From positions 1,268,858 through 1,332,857 of the forward strand of contig CM000434.1 in NCBI GenBank assembly GCA_000165345.1: a DNA stretch of 64,000 nt. Reading direction: 5' to 3'. Each line of letters begins with the position of its first letter. Position 1 is the first letter of the stretch. Made by a program: the position numbers. Positions 9,001 through 14,562 of the stretch are shown piece by piece.

Positions 9001-12000
9001 TCAAAAAGAAGAGGACATAAGTTACATATTTTAAATGCATGTGAGGCAGTTTTTACTTTGATTAATGACTCTGGAGAATCATGTGCCAGTATTTTAATTT
9101 CTGCGGTATTTCTGGTATTTTCTCTAGAAAATTTTTCTGAAGCTTCAGATATTTGTTCAGAGACTGCAATGAGAGTAGGTTTACCATTCTATCCTAAGAA
9201 GGATTTAAAATCTACTCTATTCCCTACTGAAAAGCTTGAACTGGTTACTTTGTATGAAGGTATAGTTATTGCTCTTTGTCTTGAACTTGGAATTGTATTG
9301 GATATTGAAGATATTCACCAAATTATATTTAGTGATTACCCAACTAAAAACTCCCTTGTCCCAAGATCAACCTTGAATTATCTTTTATATAGAGCATTAA
9401 AATTGCCAAATGACTTTGGAAAAACAAGAAACTTTTGGAATTGGTCAACACAAATGTATACTAGGATCAGTAATAAACAAGCAAAAATGATATTAATCAA
9501 TAGAGCAACTCAATTAACTCTAGAAATAGCCCAAGTAACAAATGAAATTGAGATAATGAATGATATTTTAGAAAAAGCAAGAAAAGATTTAAATGTCTCA
9601 AATGAAAAAATTAACCTTTTGGAAAATCCTAAACATAAAAAAATACCTAAGACAAATTATTTACACCATTATAATTATGATTTCAAATTAGCAAACTTTG
9701 ATTCCATTGAATTGAATTTAGTCAAACTTGAGAAACTAAGATATGATTTAATTATTGAAAAGGAAAAAATTGCGAAATATTTGAATACACTTTCAACTTA
9801 TATTGGAAGTAAGATTTATGATATCCCAAAAAATTTCGTGAATAATAAGTTTTATCCTTTGTACAAACCATCCGTTTTTAAAATTAATATGTATGACTCA
9901 ACAAGAATTCAAACAGGATATATTACTACTCGATCAACAAGAAATTTATATCACCTAGTTGATAATGAGCCAATCAACAAAGACTTAGATGTATATCCAC
10001 CAAAAATTAACTATTCGATCAAGACCATTTTCCAAGAAATAGAAGAATGTTCATTTTTAACTGACAAAGGTTTAGACTTAGCAATTTACTCTCAAGAGTT
10101 ATTTAGTTTATACTTGAATATTCATGTTTCCTCTCAACTTTGTTGTAGCATAATTATGAATATGCATCCAAATATTAATATTAAAGATTCATTTATTCAT
10201 TCGGCATATTCAATATTAAATTACAATTTTACTGATATAAACTATCAAGAAATTGAAGAGATTTGGCTGAAAATTATCCCTATACTTTCGATTCCTTCTG
10301 GAAATTTGTTTAAGACTAGATTTTATCAGTTCATCAACTATAAGAAAGCCACTGAGTTTGAACCAAATTATGAAGCTCCAACTCAATTCATCAGTAAACA
10401 TTCACCATCCAAGAAAGCAATAGTTCTAGATGATGCAACTTTGAAAGAAAAAGAAGAAAATGTTAAAAAAGGTCGTTATGCTATTTCAGATGCTAGACCA
10501 ATTACTAATCAGGTTAAGAAACCAAAAAATTTGAGTCATTCCGGAGAGAATTATAAGGAAATACTCGATTTAAGTTATATTGATAAATATTGGGATAATG
10601 ATTCTACTAAAGAAATCAAAAAAGAACACGATGAATTAATAAATAATGAATATAGAGCATTGAAAGAAAAGATTATGGAAATAAATAATGAATTGGGAAA
10701 AATTTATGAGAAGCTACGTGATCCAAAATTTGTAGATAAAAGCAACTTTTTCCATGTAATGGCTTCAACATTAAAAACAGACAAAGAAAGAATTAAATCA
10801 AGAATTATTCATCTGGCAGGTGAAATAGCTGAGACAGAAGTCAAATATAGTGATGAGACAGGAATCTTAATTCCTAATAATGTAAGAAAATTAGCAGATC
10901 TTCATAAAATTAACTCAATCTCTCATTCAGATATTTTAAAATTAAAAGGTGATGATTCAGGAATGGATCATAGTCAAAGAATTAGAGAGTTAGAGGCAAA
11001 GATTAAAAGCAATAATATTGAAATGTATAAAATAATTGAAATTGAAGGAAATGATTTACATGATCCAAAGTGGTATTCTAGTATGGAGAAATGTTTGAGT
11101 AGTTTTATCCCTAGAAGGAAGGAAGTAAAATCAATAGAACCAACTTCAGGAATTAAACAGTTTTATCTTGTTTCCAAAAATTATAGCTATATGGATTCTT
11201 CTCCAAAATGTACAAATTCTCAACTTGAAATGTACAAATTTGTAATTAAAGATTTAAGGAAATTGTTTGCGAACCTAAATATTCCATTAATTAAGATTAG
11301 AGGGAAAAAGCTAGAGAATGTTAAAAAACATGGACTTATTGACCCAAGACAAATGGAACACTGGGAAAATTTGCATGGGATGCTATATGAAGATAATAAA
11401 ACTGCTTGTTCTTACATTAAAAATTTACTAATGAAAATTGTTCCAGTTAGAAATCTTGATTTGAAAGAATTTATGGATTCTCCCATTTTTATTATTTGGT
11501 GTGCTAACCATATAAGATCTAGATTAGGGAATGAAGATATTTGGAGAAATATCTTTGGATTGATTTGGGTTATATTCTATACAAAACCATTCAAGCCAAA
11601 GGATTTCGTTTGGAAAAACATATTGCTTGTTTAATTTTATCAAATAAAAAAGAAAAGAAGCTAAAACATTTAATAAAAAAGGATTCAACAAAGCAATCTA
11701 GTAAAGTTGATTAAATTCTATGTTTAATTTTGCGATCACCAAATTATTGTTGGTTCTGGTTCTCCTTTTCTTGCTTTTGGAATATATAAACATTTTTCTA
11801 CTGTATAACCTTTATCAACATATCCTATAAAAGAAAATAGACCAAAAGTAGCAATACGAAATATCCAGGTCCCTTTAACTGAATTCCAAAATCTTAAAGC
11901 TTTAGTTTTTTTTGTTTCTTTAGCAGGTAATGAGTAAATATCTTTAATTGGTTCGTATCTCTGAAAAAAATGTTAAGAAAATATATTAATAAAAATGTTA

Positions 12001-14562
12001 TTAAACTTACAGAAACCACATTAATAATAATTTGATTAAAACCAACTAATCTATTAAGATCCAAAATTGAGAAGTAGTAGGTGAAAGTGGTATCGGCTTG
12101 ATATAAAGATTTCCAAGAAAAGCTAGTAGCCAATGTCTTAACAGCATTTTCGCCAATAACATCCGATGATTCTTGTAATTTTGAAATAATATTACCTACT
12201 ACTGTTGGTTGTTGAAGCGTATAATGTAGTTGTCTGTACTTATTGTAACATTCAATGTATTGGCTATGAAGTGCTATAGTACAGGATTTTTTGAATTCTG
12301 GAGGGATTAAAGTAGTAATATATTTCCATCTATCCAAAGATACTTTTTCTATTAGATATGGTTGTCTTAATACATTTCCAAGCTCCTATAAAAAAAAATT
12401 ATTAGGTATTATTATTATTATTAAGGTTAAACAATTTTTAAACTTACAGGATCCATTTTCAAAACATTTTTATTTTCTAAACTTTTTGAATTTGATATAA
12501 AAGAGTAACATTTTGATAAAAGATCAACTTCTGAGAGGATATTGGCAATTTCAAGAAGATAATTTGTACTTGTTGTAATAATTGATTGTCTTTCATCTGT
12601 TGAAAGTTTTATACTTGAGCTCTCAAGGCCAATAGAATTCAAATAATTAATTTTATCATGTTTTGTTAATTCTTCATCATCCTTAAAATCTCTAAATAGT
12701 CCTTTAAACTTTCTAATCTGATAAGACTCACTAATATCATCAATATTTTCTTTTTTAGAATTTATTAAATTAAATTTAATACATAATGATTTTGTACTAA
12801 CGAAATCTGAAGTAATTTTGTGTCCCATAGGATTTATTGATTGCTTCCAACCTCCAAATATCAGTTCTTGGGTTAGAGTATTACTAGTTTCAATCATTTC
12901 AGTTTTCTTTTCTTCAGCACTTTTTTCAAGATATTCTTTGAATCCTCCAAGTGTTGGGGTTTTCGGAGTATTTACTACTTCTACAGGGGTCAAAACCTTT
13001 TTATATGAAGGAGGAGTTAAGAAAGGGTATATGACAGTTAATAACTCAATGTTTTGTATTGTTTGACATATTGTGTTATACCAAAAGTTTGAAGAATTTT
13101 GTTTAAATAATTTTTTCGAGTTTGAATTATTTGAATCAGATTCTTTGAGATGTCTTGAGATAGCTAGAGATGTGACTTTTGAAGCTGATAGAGTTGATAC
13201 AAGTATATAATTAATTACGTCAAGAAAAATCATAAAATTATCAGAGTTCTCTTCAAAAAGTGAAGAATATATTTTAAGTATTTCAGATGGATTTATTGAA
13301 AGGTCGCTGAATGGTTGTAACAAAATTTGAATACCGTTTCCATAGAAAATATCAGGTAAATTTGAAAGAGATTCTGAAGATTCTTCCAATATCTTGTGTA
13401 TATGAAATAATATATCAGCCTTTGTTTCTTTTGGAATGGTTAAAAAAGTTCCAAAAATATCGCTAAATTTGTTTAAAATTTCTTCTGATAAGAATTTAGA
13501 GTCTTCCAATTGTTTCAAATCACGAGCTTTTTCTGAGTCAAGTTCTTCTTCTTCTATTGAAGGAAGGTCCTTTTTCTTAATTTGTTCAAGTTTACTAATT
13601 ACTATTGAGATATCAGTATCGGAAATTATTTCACCATTTTTGTTTCGTGATAAAATATTGGAATTTGGATAGTTTTCAGCAATATCTTTATTCAAGTTTC
13701 TAATTTCACCTACTTTCTTTTCATTTATTGATTTCATATACAAGTTTTTTATATCTTTGTTTCTTAGTGGGAAAATGTCATTTGTGGGGGAAATAGATTC
13801 TATATTTTTCAAATTAATAGTACGAGAAGAAGTTTCTAAATTACTTGATTCATAATTTTCGGTTAATATAGAAGATCCATAAAGTGTTTGACTCAAATCT
13901 AGTGGCTGAGAACTACCATATAAATCGCTAGAGAGAACTCCAGAAACATCTTCTATTTCAATTTTTGTTAGTTTTTTTCGTTTAGAGTCAACTGAAGGTA
14001 TTTCAGTCGAGCTCAGAAGAAAAATTAAAAAGACAAATAAATTTCGAAACTTCATCATAGCCGGTCATCCAGATAAATAAAACCCATCTGACAAGGCGAT
14101 CATTAAATAGTAAAGCATTGGCGCCAAGAGAAAAGGAAATGAGGGAAACTAAACATTAATAGTCACTTACAACAGCGACGAAACTAGTTCTACACTAGAA
14201 TACATATTAAAAAGTATATTTTTTACAATATAATGATGGGACATATACAAAAACATTAATCTACTCTCACCAATCTTGGGAAACGAGATGGTCTTGAAAC
14301 AATATCCTCTGATTCCTCCTCTGTACCTCTAGTCAACAGTAAAGAGTCCTCTGGTCTGTTTTCAAGCGGAGTAGCTCTCCAAATTTGGGAAACTGGTAAT
14401 CTTTGCGTGGGACCTCTTAAGTAACTGGTATATCTCTTAACGGGTTCAGTTGTAGTGGTTTTTGTAGTAGTAGAAGTGTGAATTGGAATGATAATTGGAC
14501 CTACAAAACTCTTTGTAGTGGTAGTGGTAGTGGTAGTGGTAGTGGTAGTGGTAGTGGTAGTG

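What the first reader, a model, noticed from the sequence alone, without database searches (positions are those of the whole stretch)
11736..14058. Unannotated three-exon gene: two short GTAAGTTTAA-initiated introns join two track ORFs and add a C-terminal transmembrane exon
Both introns start with the identical decamer GTAAGTTTAA and end in a T-rich tract plus YAG (62 nt and 50 nt). All three exons are in phase. Splicing the second intron abandons the read-through frame of the track ORF and produces a 74-aa tail with a clear TM helix (WIFRIATFGLFSFIGYV). The product is a signal peptide plus an ectodomain of about 640 aa plus a TM segment, which is a type-I membrane protein. The gene ends only 102 bp from the convergent 7402..11634 gene.
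Basis: seen in the sequence. Interest (0 to 1): 0.55.

Follow-up and report, generated by a model that had tools for sequence, protein, structure and literature searches.

The report
Known three-exon Cryptosporidium gene cgd6_5390

Summary
The window is the 3' end of Cryptosporidium parvum chromosome 6 (TTTAGG telomere, MEDLE and insulinase genes). Every measurement in the finding checks out. Two phase-0 introns of 62 and 50 nt start with GTAAGTTTAA and end in a T-tract plus YAG. They join exons of 1611, 375 and 225 nt into a 736-aa product. The gene is not unannotated. The spliced protein is residue-for-residue identical to deposited C. parvum proteins (CPATCC_0017000/QOY41424.1, WKS78655.1, WRK33145.1, KAL5368419.1). 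Both junctions are also in CAD98349.1. Only the legacy Iowa II record (XP_627857.1, 543 aa) stops at exon 1. The gene is cgd6_5390. Both introns are conserved in position in eight species, including C. andersoni. Exons 2 and 3 are always 375 and 225 nt, while the introns vary in length and sequence. Substitutions fall mainly at codon position 3. The family is restricted to the genus, with no Pfam, PDB or fold match, and the structure models are all-helical and low confidence. The "clear TM helix" is only borderline hydrophobic and contains a conserved basic residue. A type-I topology is plausible but unproven. Function is unknown.

The parts
12448..14058 (-). Exon 1 of cgd6_5390 (537 codons, ATG at 14058). 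It encodes the N-terminal signal-peptide-like segment and most of the helical body.
   Evidence: It is identical to the first 537 residues of XP_627857.1 and of QOY41424.1.
13984..14058 (-). Signal-peptide-like N-terminus (MMKFRNLFVFLIFLLSSTEIPSVDS): a basic n-region followed by a 9-residue hydrophobic core.
   Evidence: Hydropathy peak at residues 7-25. A hydrophobic N-terminus is present in all 8 species. NCBI names the protein 'putative signal peptide-containing protein'. SignalP was not available, so the cleavage site is not determined.
12386..12447 (-). Intron 1: 62 nt, phase 0, GTAAGTTTAA...T9ATAG, 13% GC.
   Evidence: A homologous intron is present in 8 species, 46-156 nt long, always starting GTAAG (GTGAG in C. 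andersoni) and ending YAG.
12383..12388 (-). Tandem NAGNAG acceptor (TAG|GAG) at the end of intron 1. The upstream AG (12386) is the conserved acceptor.
   Evidence: Sequence. The residue encoded just after the upstream AG (E or V) is kept in all orthologues. The C. tyzzeri model CTYZ_00001744 uses the downstream AG (MDP-LGNV).
12011..12385 (-). Exon 2 (125 codons).
   Evidence: It is exactly 375 nt in all 8 species. 66% of substitutions fall at codon position 3.
11961..12010 (-). Intron 2: 50 nt, phase 0, GTAAGTTTAA...T7CAG, 14% GC.
   Evidence: A homologous intron of 48-63 nt is present in 8 species.
11736..11960 (-). Exon 3 (74 codons plus TGA at 11738..11736). It is the most conserved part of the protein.
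   Evidence: It is exactly 225 nt in all 8 species. Only the claimed frame is free of stops, and 74% of substitutions fall at codon position 3. Amino-acid identity to C. parvum is 76-95% in the intestinal and bovis/ryanae lineages and 58-65% in the gastric lineage, against 36-38% for the body of exon 1.
11817..11867 (-). Hydrophobic segment WIFRIATFGLFSFIGYV (residues 694-710), the candidate membrane-spanning helix.
   Evidence: KD19 is 1.28, Eisenberg <H>21 is 0.52 and the hydrophobic moment is low at 0.19. It is the most hydrophobic non-signal-peptide 21-residue window in 7 of 8 species. It has an invariant basic residue at position 4 (R, or K in the gastric species).. AlphaFold2 predicts it as a helix at low confidence.
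11739..11816 (-). Conserved 26-residue tail DKGYTVEKCLYIPKARKGEPEPTIIW, ending in the invariant GEPEPTIIW.
   Evidence: The tail is 73-81% identical between C. hominis and the gastric-lineage species, the highest of any region. Cys718 of the C. hominis sequence (Cys719 in C. parvum) is invariant.

Best explanation
This is cgd6_5390 (CPATCC_0017000; by consecutive accession numbers also cpbgf_6005390 and CPHLJ_6g5390). It is a single-copy gene found only in the genus Cryptosporidium, near the 3' end of C. parvum chromosome 6. It has three exons separated by two short canonical U2-type GT-AG introns, both in phase 0. The spliceosome removes 62 nt and 50 nt, and the mRNA encodes a 736-aa protein. 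Shown here: the exon-intron structure, its conservation across the genus, purifying selection on all three exons, and identity with deposited annotations. Inferred: the product enters the secretory pathway through an N-terminal signal peptide. It has a predominantly alpha-helical body of about 670 residues. It is most likely held in a membrane by one marginally hydrophobic C-terminal helix, which would leave a 26-residue, almost invariant tail (…GEPEPTIIW) on the cytosolic side (type I topology). The tail is the best-conserved part of the protein, so it is more likely a binding or sorting determinant than a passive anchor. The biochemical function is unknown.
For: The organism and locus are set by the TTTAGG telomere, two MEDLE genes and an M16 insulinase further along the window, and neighbours matching SG3/cgd6_5400 and CP2/cgd6_5410. 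The spliced product is exactly QOY41424.1, WKS78655.1, WRK33145.1 and KAL5368419.1. The flanking genes are cpbgf_6005370 and _6005380 with the immediately preceding accession numbers. CAD98349.1 carries both junctions. The introns are conserved in position in C. parvum, C. ubiquitum, C. felis, C. canis, an unnamed species from SRR31860986, C. bovis, C. ryanae and C. andersoni. Exons 2 and 3 are fixed at 375 and 225 nt, while the introns are 46-156 nt and 48-63 nt with lengths not held to multiples of three. Intron nucleotide identity to C. parvum is 38-76%, against 68-90% for the exons. 66% and 74% of substitutions fall at codon position 3, and only the claimed frame is free of stops. Isaza et al. 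2015 list cgd6_5390 against its C. hominis orthologue at 99.1% identity with dN/dS 0.08. Baptista et al. 2022 state that introns in the IOWA-ATCC annotation are 100% supported by RNA-seq. All three GTAAGTTT sites in the window are annotated intron donors. The signal peptide and hydrophobic helix rest, and helical content. The family is restricted to the genus: only 3 clusters were found among 1.84 billion representatives.
Against: No transcript reads were examined here, so splicing support is comparative plus what the annotation papers state. The membrane-anchor inference is weak. The segment falls below the classic hydropathy thresholds, has a conserved charged residue inside it, and the more basic flank is on its N-terminal side. 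UniRef names the C. ubiquitum orthologue 'Secreted protein' and NCBI names the C. parvum protein only 'signal peptide-containing'. Both structure models have low confidence (pLDDT 43.7 and 47.7), so they do not show whether the helix packs against the body. I found no localisation or proteomic data for cgd6_5390.
Confidence: 0.9

Rival explanations
1. The gene structure is the same, but the product is a soluble secreted or lumenal protein. The C-terminal hydrophobic helix would then be buried in the fold, or serve as an interaction or peripheral membrane-binding element, and would not span a membrane.
For: Hydrophobicity is below the classic TM cut-offs (KD19 1.28, Eisenberg <H> 0.52), and a basic residue is conserved inside the segment. 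The segment and the tail are far more conserved than a passive anchor needs to be. A UniRef name for the C. ubiquitum orthologue is 'Secreted protein'.
Against: It is the most hydrophobic non-signal-peptide window in 7 of 8 species and has a low hydrophobic moment, so it is not amphipathic. It is flanked by charged residues and aromatic W/Y residues of the kind often found at membrane interfaces (my own knowledge). Four Cys are invariant before the segment and one after it, which fits two lumenal disulfides plus one cytosolic Cys. That last point is inference.
Confidence: 0.3
2. There is no splicing. The locus encodes the 543-aa protein of the legacy Iowa II annotation, and the downstream 147-aa ORF is separate or non-coding.
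For: This is the model in XP_627857.1/EAK90107.1. Similar truncated models exist for C. hominis, C. bovis, C. ryanae and the chipmunk genotype.
Against: Exons 2 and 3 are conserved at 64-95% amino-acid identity in the intestinal and bovis/ryanae lineages and at 54-65% in the gastric lineage, with substitutions mostly at codon position 3. They are in different frames relative to exon 1 in different species, so only splicing gives one ORF everywhere. The read-through tails (VSLKIV* and others) are not conserved. Evidence-based reannotations adopted the spliced model.
Confidence: 0.01
3. The three-exon mRNA is the main product, but the locus also makes minor isoforms. One would use the downstream AG of the TAG|GAG tandem acceptor and lack Glu538. 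Another would retain intron 2.
For: There is a NAGNAG acceptor at 12388..12383. The C. tyzzeri annotation uses the downstream AG and keeps its stop-free 48-nt intron 2 as coding sequence.
Against: The residue after the upstream AG is retained in every orthologue, and in most species the second AG is absent. In C. parvum, retaining intron 2 shifts the frame and loses the most conserved part of the protein. The C. tyzzeri model is more simply explained as an annotation artefact.
Confidence: 0.1

Closest known systems
C. parvum CPATCC_0017000 (QOY41424.1), also WKS78655.1, WRK33145.1 and KAL5368419.1; legacy ID cgd6_5390
   Same: It is identical over all 736 residues, so it has the same three exons and the same two introns. 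The flanking genes have the adjacent accession numbers and the tags cpbgf_6005370 and cpbgf_6005380.
   Different: Nothing differs. This is the same gene. The only differing C. parvum records are XP_627857.1 (543 aa, unspliced exon 1) and CAD98349.1 (629 aa, both introns spliced but starting at a downstream Met).
Orthologues in other Cryptosporidium species: ChUKH1_11610, cmbei_6005390, cubi_02665, HWI79_3664, cand_019180, CMU_021840, ACR3K2_27170
   Same: They are 734-758 aa with a hydrophobic N-terminus, a helical body, the same C-terminal hydrophobic segment and the …GEPEPTIIW end. Where DNA was examined, the intron positions are the same.
   Different: Identity to the C. parvum or C. hominis protein ranges from 42% to 99%. 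Intron lengths and sequences differ. Several species still carry truncated or mis-spliced models (C. bovis, C. ryanae, C. canis, chipmunk genotype I, C. tyzzeri).
Neighbouring secretory-granule genes SG3 (cgd6_5400), CP2 (cgd6_5410) and DG7 (cgd6_5420)
   Same: They are adjacent on chromosome 6, carry a signal peptide, are specific to the genus and have no known domains.
   Different: SG3 and CP2 are repeat-rich, Ser/Thr-rich and fast evolving (77% and 86% identity between C. parvum and C. hominis). cgd6_5390 has no repeats, is helical and is under strong purifying selection (99.1% identity, dN/dS 0.08). No sequence relationship was detected. Localisation of cgd6_5390 is unknown.
Apicomplexan TRAP/MIC2-type type-I adhesins (comparison recalled from my own knowledge)
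   Same: Both have a signal peptide, a single C-terminal hydrophobic helix and a short tail with a terminal or sub-terminal Trp.
   Different: cgd6_5390 has no vWA or TSR domain (no Pfam hit). Its tail has a net charge of about +1 and is not acidic. It is not a member of that family.

Membership tests
Canonical U2-type GT-AG spliceosomal introns | GT at the 5' end and AG at the 3' end, with a donor close to the GTAAGT consensus | tested here: met
   Both introns start GTAAGTTTAA and end TAG or CAG. The homologous introns in 7 other species start GTAAG or GTGAG and end YAG.
Canonical U2-type GT-AG spliceosomal introns | A pyrimidine-rich tract before the acceptor | tested here: met
   T9 precedes ATAG in intron 1 and T7 precedes CAG in intron 2.
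Canonical U2-type GT-AG spliceosomal introns | Removal restores one open frame. The position is conserved in orthologues, while intron length and sequence drift and are not held to multiples of three. | tested here: met
   The product is 736 aa with no internal stop. Eight species have identical exon 2 and exon 3 lengths, and their introns are 46-156 nt and 48-63 nt with varying length modulo 3. Introns are 38-76% identical to C. parvum against 68-90% for the exons.
Canonical U2-type GT-AG spliceosomal introns | Junction-spanning transcript reads | not testable with these tools
   No RNA-seq data could be mapped here. Indirect support: Baptista et al. 2022 state that introns in the IOWA-ATCC annotation are 100% supported by RNA-seq, and CPATCC_0017000 equals the spliced product.
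Orthogroup of cgd6_5390 / CPATCC_0017000 | Sequence identity with the deposited protein and conserved gene order | tested here: met
   There is an exact match over 736 aa. Upstream lie cgd6_5370 and cgd6_5380 with consecutive accession numbers. Downstream lie genes resembling SG3 and CP2. The convergent 1409-1435-aa neighbour is conserved in all loci.
Type I single-pass membrane protein | Cleavable N-terminal signal peptide | tested here: inconclusive
   A basic n-region and a hydrophobic core are present in all species. No SignalP-type predictor was available, and cleavage was not shown.
Type I single-pass membrane protein | One hydrophobic helix long and hydrophobic enough to span a bilayer | tested here: inconclusive
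   The segment is 17 residues, with KD19 of 1.28-1.63 and Eisenberg <H>21 of 0.52-0.61, which lies between the candidate and definite thresholds. It contains a conserved R or K. It is helical in the AlphaFold2 models but at low confidence.
Type I single-pass membrane protein | Lumenal or extracellular N-terminal domain and a cytosolic C-terminus | not testable with these tools
   This needs protease-protection or epitope-accessibility experiments.
GPI-anchored protein | The hydrophobic stretch lies at the extreme C-terminus, after a small-residue omega site | tested here: not met
   The hydrophobic segment is followed by 26 conserved, mostly hydrophilic residues.
TRAP/MIC2-family adhesins | Extracellular vWA (A-domain) and/or thrombospondin type-1 repeat | tested here: not met
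   No Pfam family matches at E <= 0.01.
TRAP/MIC2-family adhesins | An acidic cytoplasmic tail with a sub-terminal Trp | tested here: not met
   The tail ends in Trp but has 5 basic and 4 acidic residues.

The most novel reading that the evidence does not exclude
The C-terminal module is the best-conserved part of a protein found only in this genus. It consists of a marginally hydrophobic helix with an embedded invariant basic residue, an invariant Cys and the invariant GEPEPTIIW end. It could be a Cryptosporidium-specific membrane-anchoring or sorting signal. That would make cgd6_5390 a conserved structural membrane component of a secretory organelle or of the host-parasite interface, encoded next to the SG3-CP2-DG7 secretory gene cluster.
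Probability: 0.15. Interest if true: 0.45.

Novelty: already known. Interest (0 to 1): 0.08.

Why it matters
As a discovery it matters little, because current C. parvum annotations already carry the correct gene model. It has three practical uses. First, it shows that the ORF track used in stage 1 reflects the outdated 2004 model, so similar "unannotated intron" findings in this genome should be checked against the IOWA-ATCC or CpBGF annotations first. Second, it documents that the orthologues in C. bovis, C. ryanae, C. canis, chipmunk genotype I and C. tyzzeri are still truncated or mis-spliced in GenBank and lose the most conserved part of the protein. Third, it flags cgd6_5390 as a strongly constrained, uncharacterised, probably membrane-bound secretory-pathway protein found only in this genus, next to characterised small-granule and dense-granule genes. 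That makes it a reasonable candidate for epitope tagging.

Tried and rejected
1. Pfam scans of the product and both neighbours gave no hits.
2. A profile search of 1.84 billion representative proteins found only three Cryptosporidium clusters. That profile had only 569 positions because half of the input models were truncated, so it left out exon 3 and most of exon 2.
3. A separate word-indexed search with exons 2+3 returned only two exon-2 ORF fragments. It also missed the known full-length orthologues, so it is not evidence of absence.
4. A PDB sequence profile search gave no hits at E <= 1.
5. Two AlphaFold2 runs gave mean pLDDT of 43.7 and 47.7, all-helical and too unreliable for fold assignment.
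6. Foldseek against the PDB gave a best E of 0.06 and TM-scores of 0.12 or less, which is meaningless. The other fold libraries were not used for that reason.
7. A within-window background test asked whether excising an intron after each GTAAG site links long open frames. It did not discriminate: 11 of 69 sites passed, mostly inside long ORFs.
8. The decamer count alone is not significant (15% of shuffles give two or more copies).
9. Full-text literature searches for cgd6_5390 found no main-text mention.
10. Supplement searches for localisation or proteomics data found nothing, or the files were not held. The hyperLOPIT paper (Guerin et al. 2023) is not in the library.
11. GPI-anchor and TRAP-like readings were considered and rejected (see the membership tests).
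Full report
**Where the window comes from**
- The last ~1.9 kb of the window (62053..63965) is about 238 copies of TTTAGG.
- The 543-aa ORF in the finding is 100% identical to a C. parvum Iowa II protein.
- Further along the window lie an ABC transporter, two near-identical genes ending in …MEDLE, and an M16 insulinase.
- The window is therefore the 3' end of Cryptosporidium parvum chromosome 6, a eukaryotic genome in which short spliceosomal introns are expected.

**Check of the observation**

Reading the minus strand and rebuilding the coding sequence by script reproduces every number in the finding.

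| Feature | Coordinates (minus strand) | Size | Notes |
|---|---|---|---|
| Exon 1 | 14058..12448 | 1611 nt | ATG at 14058 |
| Intron 1 | 12447..12386 | 62 nt | GTAAGTTTAA…T9ATAG |
| Exon 2 | 12385..12011 | 375 nt | |
| Intron 2 | 12010..11961 | 50 nt | GTAAGTTTAA…T7CAG |
| Exon 3 | 11960..11736 | 225 nt | 74 codons plus TGA |

- All junctions are phase 0, and the product is 736 aa.
- Without splicing, exon 1 stops after VSLKIV. Exon 2 reads through intron 2 into another frame of exon 3.
- The decamer occurs only twice in 64 kb, and both copies are these donors. The count alone is weak evidence, because 0.5-0.6 copies are expected and 15% of shuffles give two or more.
- The octamer GTAAGTTT occurs three times. 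The third copy (5983, + strand) follows a 4-nt mini-exon, ATG-G. With a 61-nt intron removed it yields a 393-aa product that is exactly the annotated cpbgf_6005370 / CPATCC_0016980. All three copies are therefore annotated donors.

**Is the gene unannotated? No.**
- The 736-aa spliced product is in the protein collection exactly as QOY41424.1 (CPATCC_0017000), WKS78655.1, WRK33145.1 and KAL5368419.1.
- CAD98349.1 (629 aa) already contains both junctions and differs only in using a downstream start codon. To my knowledge this record comes from the 2003 chromosome 6 sequence of Bankier et al.
- Full-length models exist for C. hominis UKH1 and TU502_2012, C. meleagridis, C. ubiquitum and C. felis. 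They also exist for C. andersoni, C. muris and C. serpentis.
- Only the legacy Iowa II record XP_627857.1/EAK90107.1 carries the 543-aa single-exon model.
- The two genes on the other side are deposited as cpbgf_6005370/CPHLJ_6g5370/CHM_6g5370 and …5380, with the immediately preceding accession numbers.
- The next two genes fit SG3 (cgd6_5400: signal peptide plus 6-nt and 63-nt repeats) and CP2 (cgd6_5410: about 80 kDa).
- The gene is therefore cgd6_5390. In Isaza et al. 2015, cgd6_5390 is 99.1% identical to its C. hominis orthologue with dN/dS 0.08. That matches the 99% identity found here.

**Comparative test of the introns**
- I fetched the orthologous DNA from C. bovis, C. ryanae, C. ubiquitum, C. 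felis, C. canis, an unnamed Cryptosporidium in SRR31860986, and C. andersoni.
- Exons 2 and 3 are present in every species, including C. bovis and C. ryanae where they are not annotated.
- Exon 2 is 375 nt and exon 3 is 225 nt in all eight species.
- Intron 1 is 46-156 nt and intron 2 is 48-63 nt, and their lengths are not held to multiples of three.
- All the introns start GTAAG (GTGAG for intron 1 of C. andersoni) and end YAG.
- Introns are 38-76% identical to C. parvum, against 68-90% for the exons.
- Substitutions fall at codon position 3 in 66% of cases in exon 2 and 74% in exon 3. Only the claimed frame of exon 3 is free of stops in each of the seven species tested.
- Direct transcript data could not be examined. 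Baptista et al. 2022 state that introns in the IOWA-ATCC annotation are 100% supported by RNA-seq.

**What the protein is**
- It has no Pfam domain and no PDB sequence match.
- Only three clusters were found among 1.84 billion representatives, and all are Cryptosporidium.
- Two AlphaFold2 models are all-helical but have low confidence, and the fold search was uninformative.
- The N-terminus looks like a signal peptide in all species.
- The C-terminal segment WIFRIATFGLFSFIGYV is the most hydrophobic non-signal-peptide window in 7 of 8 species and has a low hydrophobic moment. It is still only borderline (KD19 1.28-1.63, Eisenberg <H> 0.52-0.61) and contains an invariant basic residue.
- Exon 3 is the most conserved part of the protein. 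Its 26-residue tail is 73-81% identical between C. hominis and the gastric species, against 36-38% for the body of exon 1. GEPEPTIIW and one Cys are invariant.
- A GPI anchor is excluded, because the hydrophobic segment is followed by 26 mostly hydrophilic residues. A TRAP-like adhesin is excluded, because there is no vWA or TSR domain and the tail is not acidic.
- The best reading is a secretory-pathway protein that is probably type I membrane-anchored, with a functionally important short tail. A soluble secreted protein remains a live rival.
- I found no localisation data.

**Verdict**

The finding is already known, so its interest is low.

Noticed in passing
window 5979..6043 (+), joined to the ORF ending at 7221: There is a 4-nt first exon (ATG-G) followed by a 61-nt intron (GTAAGTTT…TTTAAAG). 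The 393-aa product is exactly cpbgf_6005370 / CPATCC_0016980. The legacy Iowa II model (XP_627855.1) is 345 aa. All three GTAAGTTT octamers in the window are annotated intron donors.
   Followed up: yes
L001 5587..6405 (C. bovis); L002 6519..7309 (C. ryanae); L005 5037..5315 (C. canis); proteins P0009, P0017: Public models of the orthologue are truncated or mis-spliced in several species. C. bovis FG379_000874 and C. ryanae FG386_002091 lack exons 2-3 and the signal-peptide start. The chipmunk genotype I model ELE39_003560 stops at exon 1. The C. canis model uses a wrong acceptor and reads exon 3 out of frame. C. tyzzeri CTYZ_00001744 keeps its 48-nt intron 2 as coding sequence.
   Followed up: yes
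window 12383..12388 (-): The acceptor of intron 1 is a tandem NAGNAG (TAG|GAG). Use of the downstream AG would delete Glu538. Orthologues retain that residue, so the upstream AG is the conserved site.
   Followed up: partly
window 14256..16259 (-): The 667-aa neighbour fits SG3/cgd6_5400, with (GTAGTG)x19 and 63-nt x 6.3 repeats. Its exact sequence is not in the protein collection, unlike its neighbours. This fits repeat-number (VNTR) variation between isolates at this known typing locus.
   Followed up: partly
window ~32000..62000: The subtelomeric stretch has 16-25% GC and long gene-poor AT-rich spacers. It holds two near-identical MEDLE genes (50033..50722 and 51249..51953) and an M16 insulinase (57891..59603), with a probable continuation at 56234..57706.
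   Followed up: partly
window 62053..64000: The telomere has about 238 TTTAGG repeats with many irregular units (TTTAGGGG, TTTTAGG, TTTACGG). These look like long-read homopolymer noise. About 30 nt of non-telomeric sequence (…GGGCTCCTAGGGGCGGTTTCTTTTGACATAAG) sit at the very end and may be adapter or assembly residue.
   Followed up: no
window 7402..11634 (+): The convergent neighbour cgd6_5380 is 1410 aa here and in most records, but 1248 aa in WRK33144.1 (cpbgf_6005380). This points to a different start codon or splicing choice in that annotation. The 101-nt gap between the two stop codons implies abutting or overlapping 3' UTRs. A similarly short gap (about 103-112 nt) is seen in C. ubiquitum, C. 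felis and C. canis.
   Followed up: no
L006 (Logan SRR31860986 contig, 99,954 nt): This is an unnamed Cryptosporidium species whose orthologue is about 76% identical to C. parvum. Its introns are unusually GC-rich (intron 1 is 55% GC, against 13% in C. parvum).
   Followed up: no
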